Positions 2,889-59,016 of a stretch of DNA of 64,000 nt are shown here, in pieces. The notes under the pieces are model-generated. The model was given only the letters and a program-made list of their open reading frames with translations, was not told the DNA's origin and did not search any database. The position numbers and the translations under genes were made by a program. The stretch covers positions 6,337 through 70,336 of the forward strand of contig CAZABB010000004.1 of NCBI GenBank assembly GCA_964483625.1. Reading direction: 5' to 3'. The stretch's first letter is position 1; the number at the start of each line of letters is the position of its first letter. This DNA is from an uncultured Planctomycetia bacterium. Lineage in GTDB: Bacteria; Omnitrophota; Gorgyraeia; Duberdicusellales; 4484-171.

Positions 2889-2984
2889 AGTCACATGACA
2901 CACGTCACACGACACACGTAAAGAAATCCTGTTTCTGTTTCCCTTTCGACGTGTGACCTTGTGACTATGTGACTTTGTGACGTG
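2889..2984. repeat. Palindromic intergenic element built of 7-8-bp TGTGAC direct repeats (GTGAC element, copy a)
   Basis: Left arm GTCACATGACACACGTCACACGACACACGT. Right arm GACGTGTGACCTTGTGACTATGTGACTTTGTGACGTGT. Related copies at 29334-29407, 55110-55144, 55993-56063 and 58961-58995. Confidence 0.75.
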
Positions 2985-29327: not shown

Positions 29328-29410
29328 GACTTAACGTCACAAAGTCACAAGGTCACAGAGTCACAAGTAAAAAAATCAATACGTGTGATATGTGTCGTGT
29401 GACTTTTTCA

Positions 29411-51158: not shown

Positions 51159-51457
51159 ATCCTCCTCGAATTTACTCTCCTCACCCTCTCAATCATGTTG
51201 CGCTGGAGTCATCAATTGTACGGAAAATATCCTTTTTCTCTCTAAAAAAGAGCCTATGTTAGATGGATTAAGTTTTATTATATATGGTTTCTCCGGGGGT
51301 GTAAAGGAGAAGTTCTAAAGATACTCTCCTCAAAGCAAAAGGCGTAACGAAGACATAAAAACAGGCATTTCCCCGCCGCTTTCTTTTTATTCGGCAAAAA
51401 GCTATTTATCGCTGCAAATAAAAGGCTTTTCCGCGATCCGAGGAGCTTAATGTCCCC

Positions 51458-51486
51458 TTGAAATCGTTCATTTTAAGTGTTATATT
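51458..51486 (+). promoter_or_regulatory. Sigma70 promoter (TTGAAA, 17 nt, TATATT)
   Basis: Near-consensus promoter 29 nt upstream of an AAAGGAG RBS and an ATG at 51515. Confidence 0.7.
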
Positions 51487-51514
51487 GAAGGGAAAAATTA
51501 TAAAGGAGTACTGT

Positions 51515-51751
51515 ATGGAAATTGGAACCACCCGCACCACACATAATACCGGGGCCCGGAGCGAGCAGATAAATCGCCAGAGCCGTATCCGGCGGGCCGA
51601 GGGAATCAAACGGCAGGAACGCCAACGTGATATTCAAAACGAAATCGAAAAGCAGCAGGCTAAGAAGAAGCAGGCCATCGAACTCACCTTTCTCCAGATA
51701 AGCCAGAGACAAGCCGAAAGGAGCGGTAATTCTATCGATGTGAAGATATAA
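51515..51751 (+). CDS. Small basic coiled-coil protein of unknown function (78 aa)
   Basis: Strong promoter and RBS; R/K/Q/E-rich; no recognisable domain. Confidence 0.55.
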   Translation: MEIGTTRTTHNTGARSEQINRQSRIRRAEGIKRQERQRDIQNEIEKQQAKKKQAIELTFLQISQRQAERSGNSIDVKI

Positions 51752-51925
51752 TTTCCCGCCCTCGGGAAAAAATCATCTGAAAAAGAAAGACTTTCCATTT
51801 CTCCGCCCATCTCTTCTCTACTTACCTGATGGAACTGAAAAATTCATTTTATATCTGCTTTATTCTTTTCCCACTTACGCACTGAAAACAGGGATGAACC
51901 TTCTGCAATGCGGGTTTGTTAAAAG

Positions 51926-51966
51926 ATTCCCCCCAATCACACCTCGTAGGTGTGATTGGGGGGAAT
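51926..51966. other. Perfect 18-bp-stem palindrome (ATTCCCCCCAATCACACC-tcgta-GGTGTGATTGGGGGGAAT)
   Basis: Seen directly in the sequence; no T-tract follows it. Confidence 0.8.
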
Positions 51967-52366
51967 ACAATGTGCTCCGATTCATCAAGGAAAGGGGAGG
52001 ATTCTCTTCGTCCCGATTCTTATCGGGACTCGAGGGCATCCAGAGTAAATAACCTGCATACAATGAGGTTCACTGCTCTCCTTCGGTTCGCATGGATGTA
52101 ATCGGCAATTTTCACAACATCTTTTCCCCTCTCACCTTAACTTTACATTTTGAGCGACGCTTCTTTTGTCAAGTTAATCGCGCCTTTAAATCAGAAGCTC
52201 TACGGGAGGGAGCTTACCCGACTCCTCCGGGGGAATTCGCAGCTCAGTCCCTGCGGGACTTCGCGCGGACCCCTTTAGAAGTACAGAACCTGAATGACTG
52301 AGGGGTACGAACCCCGGTCGCTGACGCTCCACGGGGGTCTGAGTCATCCCCTTCAATCAAAAAAAT

Positions 52367-52398
52367 AAAATACCCTCACAAGGAGGGTATTTTATTTC
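52367..52398. terminator. Bidirectional rho-independent terminator
   Basis: AAAAAAATAAAA-TACCCTC-acaa-GGAGGGTA-TTTTATTTCTT. It terminates tRNA-Pro on the minus strand and any plus-strand transcript ending here. Confidence 0.75.
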
Positions 52399-52399
52399 T

Positions 52400-52478
52400 T
52401 GGTCGGGAAGGGGGGATTCGAACCCCCGACCCCTTGAACCCCATTCAAGTGCGCTAATCCAGGCTGCGCCACTTCCCG
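52400..52478 (-). tRNA. tRNA-Pro (anticodon GGG)
   Basis: Cloverleaf with acceptor CGGGAAG/CTTCCCG, anticodon loop A-T-GGG-G-T (G37), T-arm GGTTCGAAT, and encoded CCA. Confidence 0.85.
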
Positions 52479-52650
52479 AAACAAACGACGCACGACGTTC
52501 GACGCTCGACGTTTTCGATATTTATACCAGAATTACTGGGGACTGTAAAGGATGGTTTTCCCCTTTGCACACTCCGGAAGAGTGCAAAGGGGAAAGGAAA
52601 GTCACACAAGCCCGCTCCTACTTTACAGTATTATTCCTATAAGTTAAAAC

Positions 52651-53481
52651 CTATTTTAGGTTATAGGTGGTTACTTTAATATATATTTTATCTAACTCCT
52701 CTTCGCTTACTCCCAATTTATTTGCAACTCTTGTTCTTATCTCTTCTTCAGGTATGTTAATATCTTCATATAATGCTTTGCCATAAATATCATAAATTTC
52801 AAATTCTCTTTCGGTTGGTCGTATCTCGCTATTTGCATTACCCACTTTGTCTTTTATGTTAAATACATATTCGTATGAGGATCGATTATTCGATGAAGCT
52901 ATCCTTGAAGTAACATCTCCCCAATTACCATAAGGACACCAATCCACCTTGCCCAAAGTATAAAAACTGTCAACATCTTCTTCTCTGTCATACACAAGAA
53001 CAGCAATCGCATCAATATCAGAATCCTTTTTAGTTTCATCTAATATTAACTGGATTATAGTTGATTTGAATTCAGCTTTTGATATATCAGAGGGAACAAC
53101 GACTTTATATCTTTTCCTGGTATTTTTAGGCAATCTCTCTATTTCGCTCCTACTGTAAGCGGATAAAGATTTGCCCATTGCTTTCATACTGAGATCTTCG
53201 ATTTTTATAATTTTATAATCTCTTACCAGTTCTTTATTGTAATCAGAAGTCGGTTGAGCTGTTGTAATAGGTGTTTGTTTATTGCTTTTGGTTTTAGTGG
53301 GAATTCGTGAAGTGTGTCTACTTACCCTTTTAGTTCTTCTTTTTTTGCTGGAGCCAAAAGGGAGGTACCCGCTTATCCCCAAAGACAAAAGATTAAATGC
53401 GACTATAACCAGCATTATAGCGGCAAATATCTTTATTGTTGTTAAAGCGCTATTGGGTTGTTTTTTCTCTTTCTGCTCCAT
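52651..53481 (-). CDS. Membrane-anchored protein of unknown function (AT-rich island)
   Basis: N-terminal TM, then a K/R/T-rich linker, then a ~200-aa C-domain. The island is ~35% GC against ~52% in flanking DNA. Confidence 0.6.
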   Translation of the reverse strand: MEQKEKKQPNSALTTIKIFAAIMLVIVAFNLLSLGISGYLPFGSSKKRRTKRVSRHTSRIPTKTKSNKQTPITTAQPTSDYNKELVRDYKIIKIEDLSMKAMGKSLSAYSRSEIERLPKNTRKRYKVVVPSDISKAEFKSTIIQLILDETKKDSDIDAIAVLVYDREEDVDSFYTLGKVDWCPYGNWGDVTSRIASSNNRSSYEYVFNIKDKVGNANSEIRPTEREFEIYDIYGKALYEDINIPEEEIRTRVANKLGVSEEELDKIYIKVTTYNLK

Positions 53482-53777
53482 TCCGCTTTAAGGTTCTAAT
53501 AGCCCAGATAATAAACGCATAGATTATATGAGTAGAATAGCATAAGACAGCGAGTTATATGGAATATGATAACTCATAATAAATAATATCATAGATACTA
53601 CAAAGATTAACGCCTCTTTAACAATTATCTTTTTGATTTTTAGTTGCATTGTATTCCCTTATTATTTGAGTGCTTTTTGTAATTGTAACTAATAAACAAA
53701 TTAATTTTCTCATTATAATCCCCTCCCGTCTTTGAGAGTCGCTCTGTAAATTTAAACTATTTCTAAGTCCACATGTT

Positions 53778-54554
53778 CTACAGTTTTTCTCTACCCAAAA
53801 CAATTCTTCCTTTATCATTATACTTCCACATAAACGTACCGTTATGTGGTTCAGTAACTTCTAAGGGGCTACCTAAAATAGCACGGATTTCTTCCTGCGT
53901 CATTCCTCGTTTCAATTTCTCCCAGTTAGTAACATTACCGACGCTGGGAGGGTACCAATATTTCACTCGATAATCACCCGTCAATTCAAAACTAGAATCA
54001 TCTATTGGCACCTGTTCATCTTCATTTAAGAAAACGATCAAATTTCCTGAACAATGCAAGATCGCAGCTGTGTAAGGAATAGTTTGGGGTGGATGATAAA
54101 TAGGCACATTTGTAGTGGAATATCCTGAATAAGAACCTGTTCCGTAAGCATATCCCCCTGAGCCATAGACGTTCGCAGATGTAACTCCAGAATGATAAGT
54201 AGTTACTGGCTGATAAGTAGTGTAACTTGGGATATATACAGCCGTATTATAAGCTTGGCTATCAGTTTTCATATTCACTATTGCATCTGCTCCTTTCTTT
54301 CTTGCTAATCCTTTTGCCTTATTCAAGACATCATTCCAGCTGGCACAATTATCTGTATTCCCCTGAACCTCAAAATTACCAATAATTTTATATGGCTTAC
54401 CTAAATCCGGTGTCCCCTCATAAATTGGCATTACATATTTTCTTGATTTAGGAGGAAATGTTTCACTTATATGGCTATAATAATTTGCCGTTGTACAAGC
54501 ACTCAGGAAGCAACAAAGCAGGAGAGAAACAACTATTAATTGTTTTTTATTCAT
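53778..54554 (-). CDS. Lipoprotein of unknown function with a BamE/SmpA-OmlA-like C-terminus (AT-rich island)
   Basis: Lipobox LSAC. Gly/Tyr/Ser-rich middle. C-terminal GMTQEEIRAILGSP is typical of BamE-like domains. Confidence 0.6.
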   Translation of the reverse strand: MNKKQLIVVSLLLCCFLSACTTANYYSHISETFPPKSRKYVMPIYEGTPDLGKPYKIIGNFEVQGNTDNCASWNDVLNKAKGLARKKGADAIVNMKTDSQAYNTAVYIPSYTTYQPVTTYHSGVTSANVYGSGGYAYGTGSYSGYSTTNVPIYHPPQTIPYTAAILHCSGNLIVFLNEDEQVPIDDSSFELTGDYRVKYWYPPSVGNVTNWEKLKRGMTQEEIRAILGSPLEVTEPHNGTFMWKYNDKGRIVLGREKL

Positions 54555-54948
54555 CTGTTGAACTTCTTTGCTCGCTGATAGCGATAACTTTTTTGTATAT
54601 CTTTTTACTTAATACCTGACTTAGATATAAGGATCCTATACCCACGATGATAGAAACACAGACGGCAATAATAAGTCCTGCTCTATTTATAGCAAAATCT
54701 TTGTATCGCATTGGCCAAAGAAGATTCACCATTTGGAAAACAAAAGACAATAGCAAAAGAACAAATCCCACTTTTACATCAGCTTGTTGCTGTGTTATAT
54801 TTTTCCCTAATTTCTCATGGCTATACCAATTTGCTTTTGACATCTCTACTATATCCTTTGCCGATGTAGTCAACGTTCCTTTTATTAAAAAGGAACTCGC
54901 AATTAAAGCAAGCATTAAAGCAGTAACTTGAATAAAAGTTCTAAACAT
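54547..54948 (-). CDS. Small integral membrane protein of unknown function (AT-rich island)
   Basis: Three predicted TM helices; 4-nt overlap with the downstream lipoprotein gene suggests an operon. Confidence 0.55.
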   Translation of the reverse strand: MFRTFIQVTALMLALIASSFLIKGTLTTSAKDIVEMSKANWYSHEKLGKNITQQQADVKVGFVLLLLSFVFQMVNLLWPMRYKDFAINRAGLIIAVCVSIIVGIGSLYLSQVLSKKIYKKVIAISEQRSSTDE

Positions 54949-55143
54949 AATTGCCTCTTCAAAATAAAAAGCAACCCTCAATCTTGAGAGTTGCCCTGTA
55001 AATTTATCCTGTTTTTAATCTCATATGCCCTACACAATCCCCTCCCCTGGGCATAGGACATTATACTACGCTGGGTCTTGTTGCCAACCCTGAAAATCCA
55101 CCCTATTTGGACGTGTGACTATGTGACTTTGTGACGTGTGACC

Positions 55144-55362
55144 TTACTTGTAGCGGTAGGTGATGCGGCCGCGGGTGAGATCGTAGGGGGACAGCTCGAC
55201 ATCGACCCGGTCGCCGGGAATGATCTTGATAAAAAATTTACGCATCTTACCGCGCGGATAGGCAATGATCTGGTGCCCGTTATCCAGCTCGACACGGTAC
55301 ATGCTGTTGGGCAGGACCTCGACAACTTTGCCGTTAACTTTTACCGGTTCTTCTTTCGCCAT
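55144..55362 (-). CDS. infA: Translation initiation factor IF-1
   Basis: 72 aa; S1-like OB fold; highly conserved sequence. Confidence 0.95.
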
Positions 55363-56944: not shown

Positions 56945-57367
56945 TTATTTGAGAAAATCAAGGTATACCGCGAGGATCAACGCCAGCGCCGAAAGGATAA
57001 AAATAGCTAAATAATTTATCCGTTCTTTCCGTGATGAATATCCACACAGGATCGTACCGATAAGGCTGTAGTCTTGAGCCTCAAGCGGCAGCCGGCAATT
57101 GATTTTTTTTATCAAATCCTGACGTGTAATTACCTGCGACCGTTTTTGCGCCAGGCGGAATTTATAGATGAAAAAGGCAAGGAAGCCTCCCACCCCCACA
57201 TACCAGGCAACTTTTGCGTATAACGGATCGACATGGATGAGCAGCGTAACGACCCGTATCGCCAGCGCGGCGATGATGCCTACGATAAAAAATATCCACG
57301 CCCCCACCGAATCGCGGCACCGGTTATGTTTGAGGTCACAGACAAAACAACTGTTTTTGTTATCCAT
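56945..57367 (-). CDS. Integral membrane protein of unknown function
   Basis: Four predicted TMs; N-terminal CxxC..C. Confidence 0.5.
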   Translation of the reverse strand: MDNKNSCFVCDLKHNRCRDSVGAWIFFIVGIIAALAIRVVTLLIHVDPLYAKVAWYVGVGGFLAFFIYKFRLAQKRSQVITRQDLIKKINCRLPLEAQDYSLIGTILCGYSSRKERINYLAIFILSALALILAVYLDFLK

Positions 57368-58714: not shown

Positions 58715-59016
58715 ATGCGGCATAGTGCTTACGCACTATTCCTTAAACAGAACTGATTTCTCAAAGAAGACTTTTCTCTTTCGGAGTCCGCCTCCCTGCG
58801 GACGCCCTACGATCTCACTTTTTTCTAAAAGCACGAGGTTGTTCGTATGCCGCTTCATGGGGACTCCGTCCCCTCTGACGCGACACTCGAAGCACTTTCA
58901 AAGAAGAGACGCCCTCGTGCCGCTGTTACCCCTGAAGATTCTCACAGAAGAGATCTTCTTTCGTGTGACGTGTGTCGTGTGACTATGTGACTTTCAAAGA
59001 ATGACTGATTAAGACA

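What the first reader, a model, noticed from the sequence alone, without database searches (positions are those of the whole stretch)
52600..55110. AT-rich 2.5-kb island beside tRNA-Pro encoding three uncharacterised envelope proteins, bounded by ~30-bp direct repeats
GC drops sharply, to roughly 35% against ~52% in flanking DNA, between tRNA-Pro (52400-52478) and infA.
- The island encodes a TM-anchored 276-aa protein with a K/R/T-rich linker, a 258-aa lipoprotein with a BamE-like C-terminus, and a 3-TM 144-aa protein. None has a recognisable catalytic motif.
- A repeat flanks the two-gene lipoprotein/membrane-protein cassette. It reads AATCCCCTCCC…TCTTGAGAGTnGCnCTGTAAATTTA, at 53715-53765 and again at 54976-55060.
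- No integrase is present.
- The composition and the tRNA adjacency suggest horizontally acquired cargo. Possible roles are an envelope-stress, phage-receptor-masking or toxin/immunity-like module.
Basis: seen in the sequence. Interest (0 to 1): 0.6.

Follow-up and report, generated by a model that had tools for sequence, protein, structure and literature searches.

The report
Foreign AT-rich islet of envelope genes
A 2.5-kb stretch of clearly foreign, AT-rich DNA sits between the infA gene and a proline tRNA gene of an uncultivated Gram-negative-type bacterium; it carries three intact genes of unknown function (one closest to genes in Pacearchaeota-named genome bins), and this is an ordinary kind of small genomic islet, not a new system.

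Summary
Window 52.6-55.05 kb is the only GC trough in 64 kb (about 35% against 49%). Its three genes have GC3 of 0.28 against 0.556 ± 0.042 for 57 other ORFs.

The DNA is foreign and mosaic:
- **Module 1** is a translationally coupled pair. One gene encodes a 133-aa (not 144-aa) three-helix membrane protein from a family with no Pfam, PADLOC or PHROG match. The other encodes a 258-aa lipoprotein with a marginal BamE-type C-terminal domain.
- **Module 2** is a DUF4875-like gene. It is 79% nucleotide-identical to genes in Pacearchaeota-named MAGs, but has a new N-terminal anchor.

Relatives of all three families are AT-rich in some other hosts. Some lie near integrases, ParA or Abi genes.

The roughly 51-nt repeat is real. 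It brackets only module 1, its two parts are not colinear, and nothing marks it as an att site.

The tRNA link is weak: the islet lies on the tRNA's 5' side, and there is no integrase or tRNA-derived repeat. The islet does appear to split a host-specific palindromic repeat element, which marks the insertion point.

Function is unproven. No toxin, defence, phage or catalytic signature was found. Presence or absence in relatives could not be tested. Verdict: an ordinary horizontally acquired islet of low to moderate interest.

The parts
52400..52478 (-). tRNA-Pro (anticodon GGG), a host gene. The islet lies on its 5' (upstream) side.
   Evidence: ARAGORN; Rfam tRNA 57.7 bits.
52557..52595 (.). 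17-bp inverted repeat (hairpin) in host-type GC, between the islet and the tRNA. It is not followed by a T-run on either strand.
   Evidence: the repeat finder I5, 94% complementary; sequence read.
52598..52607 (+). AAAGTCACAC, read as the remnant 'left arm' of a host-specific palindromic intergenic element. It marks the left insertion boundary.
   Evidence: This 10-mer occurs only twice in 64 kb (0.08 expected). The other copy starts the left arm of the complete element at 29397-29406. The GC switch lies about 15 nt further in.
52651..53481 (-). 276-aa protein: N-terminal TM helix, polybasic K/R linker, then a conserved ~200-aa DUF4875-like domain. The part from 53301 to 52673 is of Pacearchaeota-MAG-like origin. 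The N-terminal anchor (53481-53302) is not homologous to those genes.
   Evidence: 82 homologues. Alignment A1 motifs. AF2 pLDDT 84.8. Foldseek 4lg3 E 6.4e-4, probability 1.0. DUF4875 hits in 23 of 32 members. 79% nucleotide identity over 630 bp. dN/dS 0.09-0.14.
53618..53713 (-). 31-aa ORF MRKLICLLVTITKS..., behind a strong Shine-Dalgarno site. It looks like a degenerate remnant of a mini-lipoprotein gene.
   Evidence: The Shine-Dalgarno site and first 9 codons resemble the 38-aa lipoprotein ORF MKKLICLLVLVVMVSGC... that precedes the 133-aa homologue in L102-L104. No family hit.
53717..53727 (-). Copy A of the 11-mer GGGAGGGGATT ('Y'). Here it is the Shine-Dalgarno site of the 31-aa ORF and lies 3' of repeat X on the coding strand.
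   Evidence: Sequence read.
53732..53782 (-). Copy A of the 51-nt direct repeat ('X'). It starts exactly at the stop codon of the lipoprotein gene.
   Evidence: the repeat finder D1; core unique to two sites.
53778..54554 (-). 258-aa lipoprotein. It has the lipobox LSAC and an N-domain (~residues 21-175) shared with 8 other lipoproteins, with G/S/T/Y-rich long beta-hairpins. The C-terminal domain is BamE/SmpA-OmlA-type.
   Evidence: ORF. Pfam BamE 25.1 bits against 23.2. PHROG 3135 E 8e-7 on residues 208-245. Homologues cover only the N-domain. AF2 pLDDT 64, with the N-domain blocks mostly 74-92. Best fold hit FvfA, E 0.014.
54547..54948 (-). 133-aa three-TM membrane protein (motifs MxRTFIQV...NLLWPMR..DF). 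Its stop overlaps the start of the lipoprotein gene by 8 nt (ATGAATAA), which indicates translational coupling.
   Evidence: 261 representative clusters at E<=1e-3. 33 hits. Alignments A3 and A4. No consistent Pfam, PADLOC or PHROG family. The overlap was read.
54958..54997 (-). Intrinsic-terminator-like hairpin (13 pairs) plus T-run, 9 nt upstream of the 133-aa start codon. Its 5' half is the end of repeat X copy B.
   Evidence: Terminator scan. RNA fold of 54940-55055: -32.8 kcal/mol, z = -4.4.
54984..55034 (-). Copy B of the 51-nt direct repeat ('X').
   Evidence: the repeat finder D1.
55036..55046 (-). Copy B of the 11-mer GGGAGGGGATT ('Y'). Here it lies 5' of X on the coding strand, the opposite order to copy A.
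   Evidence: Sequence read.
55060..55087 (-). Sigma-70-like promoter candidate TTGGCA-16-TATAAT (11 of 12), facing the cassette.
   Evidence: Consensus scan. The overall number of hits in the region equals the chance expectation, so this is a candidate only.
55114..55142 (+). Tandem octamer array (TGTGACNN, four TGTGAC copies), the 'right arm' of the host-specific element, immediately after the infA stop codon. It marks the right insertion boundary.
   Evidence: Similar arrays at 2952-2981, 29336-29365 and 58978-58991: 9 pattern hits against 0.1 expected; TRF.
55144..55362 (-). infA (translation initiation factor IF-1), a host gene flanking the islet.
   Evidence: ORF; Pfam eIF-1a on the identical gene in L001.

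Best explanation
About 2.5 kb of foreign DNA (roughly 52608-55105) was inserted into the short spacer between infA and tRNA-Pro of an uncultivated diderm bacterium. It lies inside one copy of a host-specific palindromic repeat element. It is a mosaic of two modules with different origins.

**Module 1** is a translationally coupled operon. It encodes a 133-aa three-helix inner-membrane protein from a widespread family that matched nothing in Pfam, PADLOC or PHROGs. It also encodes a lipoprotein, outer-membrane-targeted if the E. coli +2 rule applies, with a beta-hairpin-rich N-domain and a BamE-type C-domain.

**Module 2** is a DUF4875-like surface-protein gene. Its closest relatives are in Pacearchaeota-named MAGs. 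Here it carries a new N-terminal transmembrane and polybasic anchor.

Each family behaves elsewhere as a wandering accessory gene. Relatives often sit in AT-rich patches, sometimes next to integrases, ParA or Abi genes.

Inferred, not shown:
- Insertion occurred by illegitimate or short-homology recombination, not by a tRNA-targeting integrase.
- The 51-nt repeats are a duplicated untranslated or terminator segment left by cassette shuffling.
- The products are non-catalytic accessory envelope proteins. The most plausible role is a membrane-plus-lipoprotein pair that alters or shields the cell surface. I put this functional guess at about 25%.

The confidence below refers to the foreign mosaic islet reading.
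For: **Foreign origin**
- The only GC trough in 64 kb.
- GC3 of 0.28 against 0.556 ± 0.042, and codon-bias distance of 0.64-0.71 against 0.30 ± 0.09.
- The 276-aa gene is 79% nucleotide-identical over 630 bp to loci L002-L006 (protein named Candidatus Pacearchaeota archaeon) and L009-L013.
- The N-terminal anchor is not homologous to those genes.
- dN/dS of 0.09-0.14, so the domain has evolved as a functional gene.

**Mosaic**
- The nearest relatives of the three genes come from different contigs and named groups: a Pacearchaeota-named bin; an AT-rich contig carrying ParA and HTH genes; Planctomycetes/Sedimentisphaerales MAGs; and marine-sediment lipoproteins.
- The three genes never co-occur in the other loci fetched.

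**Wandering behaviour**
- The 133-aa homologue has GC 0.30 in a 0.44 locus (L107) and 0.35 in a 0.43 locus (L105).
- The lipoprotein homologue lies in a 0.43-0.49 patch of a 0.59 locus (L019).
- A phage-type integrase gene lies near the 276-aa relative in L109-L111 and near the lipoprotein relative in L016.
- AbiTii is nearby in L009.

**Insertion point**
- Arrays of TGTGACNN occur at four intergenic sites (9 hits against 0.1 expected).
- At two sites an inverted arm lies 14-29 nt before the array.
- AAAGTCACAC occurs only at the start of one such arm and at the islet's left edge, in the matching orientation to the array at the right edge.

**Operon**: 8-nt overlap between the stop of the 133-aa gene and the start of the lipoprotein gene.

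**Host is a diderm**: PagL and an OMP beta-barrel protein are nearby.

**Junctions** are reproduced in an independent assembly.
Against: - No close relative of the host could be retrieved, so presence or absence at this site was never compared directly.
- The split-element argument was made after the fact. It rests on two complete reference copies in the window.
- dS against the nearest Pacearchaeota-MAG genes is about 1-1.8. The true donor is therefore unsampled, and the direction of inter-domain transfer is inferred from family distribution only.
- Taxonomic labels of MAG contigs can be wrong.
- Function is not shown by any result. All domain and fold matches are to uncharacterised or weakly matching entries.
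- The polybasic stretch after the TM helix of the 276-aa protein argues that its domain may not be extracytoplasmic here.
- A terminator-like hairpin between the candidate promoter and the cassette leaves expression uncertain.
Confidence: 0.72

Rival explanations
1. The islet is the decayed remnant of an integrated mobile element (prophage, ICE or integrative islet). The element has lost its integrase and most of its genes, and these three cargo genes are what is left.
For: - Relatives of two of the three families lie beside phage-type integrase genes elsewhere (L016; L109-L111).
- The nearest 133-aa homologue is on a contig that also carries ParA and HTH genes.
- The 31-aa ORF looks like a decayed mini-lipoprotein gene.
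- Internal direct repeats are present.
- The BamE-type domain hits a PHROG family at E 8e-7.
Against: - No integrase, transposase or phage structural remnant is present.
- No relative of the 276-aa or 133-aa family was found in IMG/VR, and no phage relative of any of the three. The one plasmid hit is a 26%-identical hypothetical protein.
- The islet is on the 5' side of the tRNA.
- No tRNA-derived repeat is present.
- The three genes have different nearest relatives and do not travel together elsewhere.
Confidence: 0.15
2. The genes form a protective module: orphan immunity against a secreted or contact-delivered toxin, or a superinfection-exclusion or abortive-infection-type defence that acts at the envelope.
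For: - The model of the 276-aa protein gives a weak fold match to a chain of the B. fragilis T6SS BtpeA-BtpiA effector-immunity complex (9jdi_C, E 0.05, probability 0.60). It also weakly matches a Myoviridae lipoprotein (E 0.008).
- The lipoprotein model gives weak hits to the TraT surface-exclusion lipoprotein and to beta-pore stems (E 0.1-0.3).
- AbiTii and nuclease-like genes lie beside a 276-aa relative.
- In L107, a gene following the 133-aa homologue carries an R-x4-H motif, seen by eye.
- Small AT-rich accessory envelope genes are typical of such functions (general knowledge).
Against: - No PADLOC model matches any of the three proteins or seven fused relatives.
- No toxin or effector gene is adjacent.
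- The fold matches are below usual significance, with low TM-scores.
- The L107 neighbour has no HEPN Pfam hit.
- The contexts of relatives are heterogeneous.
Confidence: 0.1
3. The genes are native and ancestral. Their low GC only reflects membrane-protein amino-acid composition or local mutational bias. Alternatively, the segment is an assembly or binning chimera.
For: - Membrane and secreted proteins can be somewhat AT-rich.
- The genome is a metagenome-assembled contig.
- Local synteny around the NTPase is not conserved even in the 60-69%-identical relatives.
Against: - GC3, which is largely independent of amino-acid content, lies 6.5 SD below the window mean.
- 79% nucleotide identity to genes in 29-34% GC loci of Pacearchaeota-named bins and related unnamed contigs.
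- Other membrane proteins in the window (for example 56945-57367) have normal GC3.
- The Logan contig reproduces both junctions at 100% identity.
Confidence: 0.03

Closest known systems
Small genomic islets and islands of horizontally acquired accessory genes in bacterial chromosomes (classically tRNA-linked)
   Same: - Sharp compositional and codon-usage break.
- Accessory 'hypothetical' envelope genes.
- Location in an intergenic spacer beside a tRNA gene.
- Patchy distribution of the cargo families.
   Different: - No integrase.
- The islet lies on the 5' rather than the 3' side of the tRNA.
- No tRNA-derived flanking repeats.
- Only 2.5 kb.
- It appears to lie within a host palindromic repeat element rather than at an att site.
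DUF4875 (Pfam PF16175; crystal structure 4lg3, DESPIG_00776 of Desulfovibrio piger), a family of unknown function
   Same: - The 276-aa protein's conserved domain matches the HMM at E 3e-4.
- 23 of 32 relatives match the HMM.
- The AF2 model's best PDB match is 4lg3 (probability 1.0).
   Different: - The window protein scores 21 bits, below the 25-bit gathering score.
- TM-score is only 0.34 (query-normalised) and 0.48 (target-normalised).
- This branch has its own strongly conserved motifs (YDRKED, WCPNGDW, NDRSSY, PTEREFEIYD) and an extra C-terminal three-helix bundle.
- Members named by their sources include archaeal ones, some fused to S-layer or PEGA domains.
- The function of DUF4875 itself is unknown.
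BamE / SmpA-OmlA small outer-membrane lipoproteins
   Same: Lipoprotein signal with a lipobox. The C-terminal ~40 residues pass the Pfam BamE gathering score (25.1 bits against 23.2).
   Different: - It is not a BamE orthologue: the NCBIfam BamE equivalog scores 13.4 bits against a cut-off of 93.
- The domain is a C-terminal appendage on a 258-aa protein whose larger N-domain belongs to another, un-named lipoprotein family.
- In two relatives a PDZ domain takes the place of the BamE-type domain.
- The gene is foreign and AT-rich.
Phage or plasmid 'moron' and surface-exclusion lipoproteins (e.g. TraT, Llp, Cor). This is a comparison of how it might work, not of membership.
   Same: Small horizontally acquired envelope lipoprotein and membrane genes without catalytic motifs, carried as cargo. 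TraT decamers give weak fold hits to the lipoprotein model.
   Different: - The fold hits are not significant (E 0.14-0.7, TM about 0.1).
- There is no phage or plasmid context here.
- No experimental or contextual link to exclusion exists.
Integron gene cassettes bounded by attC sites
   Same: A promoter-proximal, compact, two-gene cassette bracketed by imperfect ~50-nt direct repeats, one of which contains an imperfect palindrome.
   Different: - No integron integrase anywhere in the window.
- The palindrome ends (GGGCAAC / GTTGCTT) do not fit the RYYYAAC / GTTRRRY core sites.
- Only one copy is palindromic, and there it behaves as a terminator-like hairpin with a T-run.

Membership tests
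tRNA-targeted integrative genomic island | Tyrosine or serine integrase gene at one end | tested here: not met
   No integrase Pfam hit in the islet or in the neighbouring ORFs scanned between 42.3 and 63.6 kb.
tRNA-targeted integrative genomic island | Insertion at the 3' end of the tRNA gene, with a direct repeat of the tRNA 3' part at the distal end | tested here: not met
   tRNA-Pro runs 52478 to 52400 on the minus strand and the islet lies upstream of its 5' end. No direct repeat of 8 nt or more links 52380-52700 with 54960-55160.
tRNA-targeted integrative genomic island | Atypical base composition and codon usage | tested here: met
   GC 0.33-0.38 and GC3 0.28, against 0.49 and 0.556.
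tRNA-targeted integrative genomic island | Absent from the same site in related genomes | tested here: inconclusive
   The genome scan with Hom gave two 44%-identical, non-syntenic loci. Of 80 metagenome loci with NTPase relatives, none has infA, tRNA-Pro or the islet genes alongside. No comparable site was obtained.
DUF4875 (PF16175) | HMM score at or above the Pfam gathering threshold | tested here: not met
   21 bits against a cut-off of 25 for the window protein. 23 of 32 relatives match at E<=0.01, the best at 1.4e-6. This is a divergent sister branch, not a curated member.
DUF4875 (PF16175) | Same fold as the family's solved structure 4lg3 | tested here: met
   Foldseek top hit 4lg3_C: E 6.4e-4, probability 1.00, TM 0.34 (query) and 0.48 (target). 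The model has pLDDT 84.8, and above 90 over most of the domain.
BamE (BAM-complex lipoprotein) | BamE/SmpA-OmlA domain detected | tested here: met
   PF04355 at 25.1 bits against 23.2, residues 210-246. The match is marginal, and the AF2 model of this part has pLDDT below 50.
BamE (BAM-complex lipoprotein) | Orthology to BamE (equivalog-level match; ~110-aa single-domain protein) | tested here: not met
   NCBIfam NF008585 scores 13.4 bits against a cut-off of 93. The protein is 258 aa with an unrelated N-domain.
Known anti-phage defence systems (PADLOC-DB v2) | Match of any component to a defence-system HMM | tested here: not met
   No hit at E<=1 for the three proteins or for seven fused relatives of the 133-aa family.
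Toxin-immunity (T6SS/CDI-type) module | Immunity gene adjacent to a cognate toxin or effector gene | tested here: not met
   No toxin-like domain in or beside the islet.
Toxin-immunity (T6SS/CDI-type) module | Structural similarity to a characterised immunity protein | tested here: inconclusive
   9jdi_C (BtpeA CTD-BtpiA complex): E 0.05, probability 0.60, TM 0.23 and 0.34. Whether chain C is the immunity protein was not established.
Integron gene cassette | IntI integrase plus attC sites with RYYYAAC / GTTRRRY cores | tested here: not met
   No integrase. The repeat sequence does not fit the core-site consensus (read).
Prophage or phage-derived region | Homologues in phage genomes or viral contigs | tested here: not met
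   IMG/VR scans with the 276-aa and 133-aa family alignments found nothing; the lipoprotein alignment could not be scanned there. tblastn of all three proteins against 50,697 phage records gave no match. Only the BamE-type domain hits a PHROG of unknown function.

The most novel reading that the evidence does not exclude
The 133-aa three-helix membrane protein family has 261 representative clusters, no Pfam, PADLOC or PHROG match, and recurrent fusions to unknown domains. It could be the constant component of a new horizontally mobile envelope system that pairs with exchangeable lipoproteins: the 258-aa YbjQ/BamE-type one here, and a CsgG/FlgO-like 195-aa protein plus a 38-aa mini-lipoprotein in L102-L104. 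Such a system might protect the cell surface, for example by exclusion of phage or toxins. The X/Y repeats would then be the recombination scars of an integrase-independent cassette exchange. This exchange would also move genes between DPANN archaea and bacteria.
Probability: 0.07. Interest if true: 0.6.

Novelty: new member of a known kind. Interest (0 to 1): 0.3.

Why it matters
The case shows how an uncultivated, deep-branching diderm bacterium picks up small pieces of foreign DNA without any recognisable mobility gene. One piece is a surface-protein gene closest to those of Pacearchaeota-named (DPANN) MAGs, and the insertion appears to lie inside a host repeat element.

It also flags two sizeable protein families that have no annotation and often sit in AT-rich, variable gene neighbourhoods:
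- the 133-aa MxRTFIQ...NLLWPMR membrane protein;
- the WCPNGDW branch of DUF4875.

These are reasonable targets for structure and function work. Nothing here changes current understanding of islands, defence or envelope biology.

Tried and rejected
1. **Presence or absence in relatives.** The GTDB genome scan with the neighbouring homoserine dehydrogenase returned only two 44%-identical Deltaproteobacteria MAG loci, with no tRNA or synteny. The JGI metagenome scan with the adjacent NTPase returned 80 loci at 37-69% identity. None has infA, tRNA-Pro or the islet genes. infA itself is a singleton 90% cluster.
2. **Host identity.** Cluster look-ups gave no names. A search for the run accession in papers found nothing.
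3. **Phage or plasmid origin.** IMG/VR scans with A1 and A4 found nothing. tblastn against phages found nothing. tblastn against plasmids found one 26%-identical hypothetical protein on a Clostridium estertheticum plasmid. The repeat core is absent from IMG/VR.
4. **Defence annotation.** PADLOC gave no hits. Pfam on neighbours of homologues gave nothing above threshold except an Hjc-like nuclease.
5. **RNA element in the repeat or leader.** Rfam gave only noise (rli56, 25.8 bits against 47). The repeat core is not found upstream of homologues in any fetched locus.
6. **att sites.** No direct repeat links the tRNA region and the right boundary.
7. **Pseudogene decay of the 276-aa gene.** Rejected for the domain: dN/dS is 0.09-0.14.
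9. **Literature.** Nothing found on DUF4875 or FvfA. BtpeA is mentioned once, as a T6SS effector.
10. **Fusion partners of the 133-aa family.** No Pfam domains found.

Full report
**1. What is in the sequence**

The window averages about 49% GC in 2-kb windows (range 0.44-0.52). The single exception is the stretch from about 52.6 to 55.05 kb, where 300-nt windows fall to 0.29-0.40. With 60-nt windows the switches lie near 52620 and 55030-55060.

All features are on the minus strand. In the direction of transcription they are:
- infA (55362-55144);
- a 133-aa membrane-protein gene (54948-54547);
- a 258-aa lipoprotein gene (54554-53778);
- a 31-aa ORF (53713-53618);
- a 276-aa gene (53481-52651);
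- a 17-bp-stem hairpin (52595-52557);
- tRNA-Pro(GGG) (52478-52400).

Three things place the start at 54948, giving 133 aa: an ATG behind an AAGAGG Shine-Dalgarno site, the N-termini of all homologues (M-x-R-T-F-I-Q), and the independent gene call on a Logan contig. Its stop overlaps the lipoprotein start by 8 nt (ATGAATAA), so the two genes are translationally coupled.

The flanks encode housekeeping functions: threonine-synthase-type PALP enzyme, ArgRS, RecJ, homoserine dehydrogenase, GpsA, DHPS. They also encode PagL, an OMP beta-barrel protein, PilZ, TPR and a THEP1-type NTPase. The host is therefore a diderm bacterium, and none of the ORFs scanned between 42.3 and 63.6 kb is an integrase.

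**2. Is it foreign?**

Yes, on four independent grounds.

(a) *Codon level.* GC3 of the three genes is 0.276-0.286, against 0.556 ± 0.042 for 57 other ORFs, about 6.5 SD away. Karlin-type codon-usage distance is 0.64-0.71 against 0.30 ± 0.09. Another small membrane protein nearby (56945-57367) is normal, so this is not an amino-acid-composition effect.

(b) *Nucleotide identity to other genomes.* Window 53301-52673 is 79% identical over 630 bp to two sets of contigs. One set carries a protein that NCBI names Candidatus Pacearchaeota archaeon. Those contigs have archaeal-type neighbours (DUF357, DUF7343, Lhr), 29-34% GC, and TATA-box-like sequence upstream. The first 180 nt of the window gene, which encode the TM helix and K/R-rich linker, have no counterpart there.

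(c) *Behaviour of the families elsewhere.* Relatives of all three families sit in AT-rich patches in some other hosts.
- The 133-aa homologue has GC 0.30 in a 0.44 locus and 0.35 in a 0.43 locus.
- The lipoprotein homologue lies in a 0.43-0.49 patch of a 0.59 locus.
- Several relatives lie beside phage-type integrases, ParA/HTH or AbiTii genes.

(d) *A split host element.* The window contains a host-specific intergenic element.
- It consists of tandem TGTGACNN octamers at 2952-2981, 29336-29365, 55114-55142 and 58978-58991. The pattern gives 9 hits against 0.1 expected.
- At the first two sites, an inverted arm (GTCACACGACACA...) lies 14-29 nt before the array.
- The array at 55114-55142 abuts the infA stop codon, at the right edge of the islet.
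- The 10-mer AAAGTCACAC occurs only twice in 64 kb (0.08 expected). One copy starts the arm of the 29.3-kb element. The other is at 52598-52607, at the left edge of the islet and in the matching orientation.
- The arm start and the array start are 40 nt apart in the reference copy and 2516 nt apart here.

I read this as an insertion of about 2.5 kb into one such element. This is an inference made after the fact from two reference copies.

An assembly artefact is unlikely. A Logan contig from run SRR7048225 is 100% identical from 55450 to 52427.

The direct test, presence or absence in relatives, failed. The host lineage is too poorly sampled.

**3. The three proteins**

*276 aa.*
- There are 82 homologues at 37-76% identity. 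They share an N-terminal signal, lipobox or anchor, a variable P/T-rich linker, and a ~200-aa domain with many invariant polar residues (YDRKED, WCPNGDW, NDRSSY, PTEREFEIYD).
- Some are fused to PEGA or Methanosarcinales-type S-layer domains. Named members include Pacearchaeota, Methanococcoides and one Proteobacteria MAG.
- The window protein scores just below the DUF4875 threshold (21 bits against 25), and 23 of 32 relatives match that model.
- A confident AF2 model (pLDDT 84.8) has 4lg3, a DUF487-labelled structure that I take to be DUF4875, as its best PDB match (E 6.4e-4, probability 1.0, TM 0.48 on the target). Everything else is weak, including a chain of a T6SS effector-immunity complex (probability 0.60) and a Myoviridae lipoprotein.
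- dN/dS against the Pacearchaeota-MAG genes is 0.09-0.14, so the domain evolved under purifying selection. dS is about 1-1.8, so the sampled genes are not the direct donor.
- In the window protein the TM helix is followed by eleven K/R residues in about 25 positions. By the positive-inside rule this would keep the domain in the cytoplasm, unlike its relatives. Its 'envelope' status is therefore uncertain (inference).

*258 aa.*
- It has a lipoprotein signal (LSAC|T).
- Only eight homologues were found (22-41% identity). All are lipoproteins and all align to the N-terminal ~170 residues only. Two carry PDZ domains where this protein carries a BamE-type domain.
- The BamE Pfam match just passes (25.1 bits against 23.2), but the NCBIfam BamE equivalog fails by a wide margin (13.4 against 93). 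It is not BamE.
- The AF2 model is moderate (pLDDT 64; N-domain blocks mostly 74-92; C-terminal part below 50). It shows four 16-19-residue strands rich in G/S/T/Y.
- The best fold hit is Francisella FvfA (E 0.014, TM 0.51 on the target), followed by insignificant hits to beta-pore stems and TraT.

*133 aa.*
- It has three predicted TM helices.
- An exhaustive HMMER search finds 261 representative clusters at E<=1e-3 (120 at 1e-10). Most are ~130-aa stand-alone proteins. Several are fused at either end to domains without Pfam matches.
- No consistent Pfam, PADLOC or PHROG family exists.
- Named members are Planctomycetes/Sedimentisphaerales MAGs.
- Contexts differ between loci:
  - L102-L104: a 195-aa lipoprotein and a 38-aa mini-lipoprotein upstream, with ParA and HTH genes nearby in L103;
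  - L105: the gene stands alone;
  - L107: it is the first gene of an AT-rich five-gene cluster.

The three families never co-occur elsewhere in the loci I could fetch, so the islet is a mosaic.

**4. The repeats**

On the coding strand, a 51-nt segment X (TGTAG...AAATTTACAGRGCRACTCTCAA) occurs twice at 76% identity. Its 22-nt core is found nowhere else in the window and in none of 100 shuffles.

- Copy A begins exactly at the lipoprotein stop codon. It is followed by the 11-mer Y (GGGAGGGGATT), which serves as the Shine-Dalgarno site of the 31-aa ORF.
- Copy B lies upstream of the 133-aa gene and is preceded by Y. Its 3' end forms the 5' half of a 13-pair hairpin followed by a T-run, 9 nt before the start codon. 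The leader fold has z = -4.4.
- A good sigma-70-like match (TTGGCA-16-TATAAT) lies 5' of Y-X. The scan's overall hit count equals the chance expectation, however.

The order is therefore Y-X-[133-258]-X-Y. This is not what a simple target-site duplication or att pair produces. The palindrome does not fit attC core sites.

The 31-aa ORF (MRKLICLLV...) and its Shine-Dalgarno site resemble the mini-lipoprotein ORF (MKKLICLLVLVVMVSGC...) that precedes the 133-aa homologue in L102-L104. This points to past rearrangement of a lipoprotein, mini-lipoprotein and membrane-protein cassette.

My reading is that X/Y are duplicated untranslated segments left by cassette shuffling. A functional role, such as attenuation of the cassette by the hairpin, is possible but untested. 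The repeat is absent upstream of homologues and from IMG/VR.

**5. How it most likely works**

Shown:
- The DNA is foreign, mosaic, intact and integrase-less.
- It contains one two-gene operon and one separate gene.

Inferred:
- Insertion was by illegitimate or short-homology recombination into a host repeat element, not tRNA-directed integration. The islet is on the tRNA's 5' side and there is no tRNA-derived repeat.

Guessed, at about 25%:
- The membrane protein and the lipoprotein form an accessory envelope pair that modifies or shields the surface.
- The DUF4875-like protein is a binding, non-catalytic surface or membrane-proximal protein.

Rivals: a decayed integrative element (0.15), an immunity or defence module (0.10), and native genes or a chimera (0.03). 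No positive evidence was found for any toxin, defence or phage role.

**6. Verdict**

- the flanks are 49% GC, not 52%;
- the membrane protein is 133 aa;
- the repeat is non-colinear and internal to the islet.

The significance given to the tRNA, and the proposed functions, are not.

This is a new member of a well-known kind: a small horizontally acquired islet of unannotated genes. Three modest points of interest remain:
- the link of one gene to genes in DPANN-archaeal (Pacearchaeota-named) MAGs;
- the apparent insertion into a host palindromic element;
- two sizeable protein families with no functional annotation.

Noticed in passing
window 2890-2981, 29336-29406, 55114-55142, 58957-58991: A host-specific intergenic repeat element. 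It consists of tandem TGTGACNN octamers (3-4 copies). At two sites an inverted arm (GTCACACGACACA...) lies 14-29 nt upstream, forming an imperfect palindrome. The pattern gives 9 hits against 0.1 expected. Its function is unknown; it could be REP-like or a protein-binding array. One copy appears to be split by the islet.
   Followed up: partly
window 51160-52400: A ~1.2-kb stretch beyond the 3' end of tRNA-Pro with no long ORF.
- It contains a perfect 16-bp-stem hairpin (about 51925-51958).
- It contains a T-arm-like GGGGTACGAACCCC at 52302-52315 that echoes the tRNA-Pro T-arm.
- It contains a bidirectional terminator-like hairpin at 52371-52389.
- It contains a 78-aa K/R/E/Q-rich ORF with a good Shine-Dalgarno site on the plus strand (51515-51751).
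- There is no Rfam or Pfam match. It could be an unknown RNA or gene remnants.
   Followed up: partly
L002 2287-3039, L007 5446-6222, L009 2817-3593: The DUF4875-like gene is 92-93% nucleotide-identical among three AT-rich contigs that have different neighbours. L007 and L009 also share about 130 nt of upstream sequence, including a TATA-box-like motif. The gene therefore appears to move, with its promoter, among DPANN-type archaea. In L002 and L007 it is followed tail-to-tail by a conserved 188-aa gene of unknown function.
   Followed up: partly
L107 5001-7414: A 133-aa-family gene (GC 0.30) heads an AT-rich five-gene cluster (GC 0.34-0.36) in a 0.44-GC Planctomycetes-like contig. The next gene (194 aa) carries an R-x4-H motif (RCNMFH) reminiscent of HEPN domains, but has no Pfam hit.
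   Followed up: no
L102 283-1417; L103 870-3568; L104 368-1767: The nearest homologue of the 133-aa protein (59% identity) sits after a 195-aa lipoprotein (weak CsgG/FlgO-like hits) and a 38-aa mini-lipoprotein. It is followed in L103 and L104 by a 76-aa two-TM protein. The contig is AT-rich, and in L103 it also carries ParA and an HTH regulator, which suggests a plasmid-like element.
   Followed up: partly
L022-L101 (80 metagenome loci): Relatives of the THEP1-type NTPase next to infA (37-69% identity) are never adjacent to infA, tRNA-Pro or homoserine dehydrogenase. Three of the closer ones keep the upstream 140-aa membrane protein but lack the TPR gene in between. Local gene order around the islet is specific to this lineage.
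   Followed up: partly
window 52485-52513: A short tandem repeat (ACGACGC about 3.9 times, or a 14-nt unit twice) lies immediately upstream of the tRNA-Pro 5' end, downstream of a TTTACA-17-TATAAA promoter-like sequence at 52549-52521.
   Followed up: no
window 53326-53427 versus L007 4156-4854: The TM helix and polybasic stretch of the 276-aa protein resemble (44% over 34 aa, E 0.03) the TM + KKRKRRRKR segment of an archaeal DUF7343 surface or HTH protein that neighbours the DUF4875-like gene in L007. This is probably low-complexity convergence. It is consistent with the stretch being a cytoplasmic stop-transfer signal.
   Followed up: no
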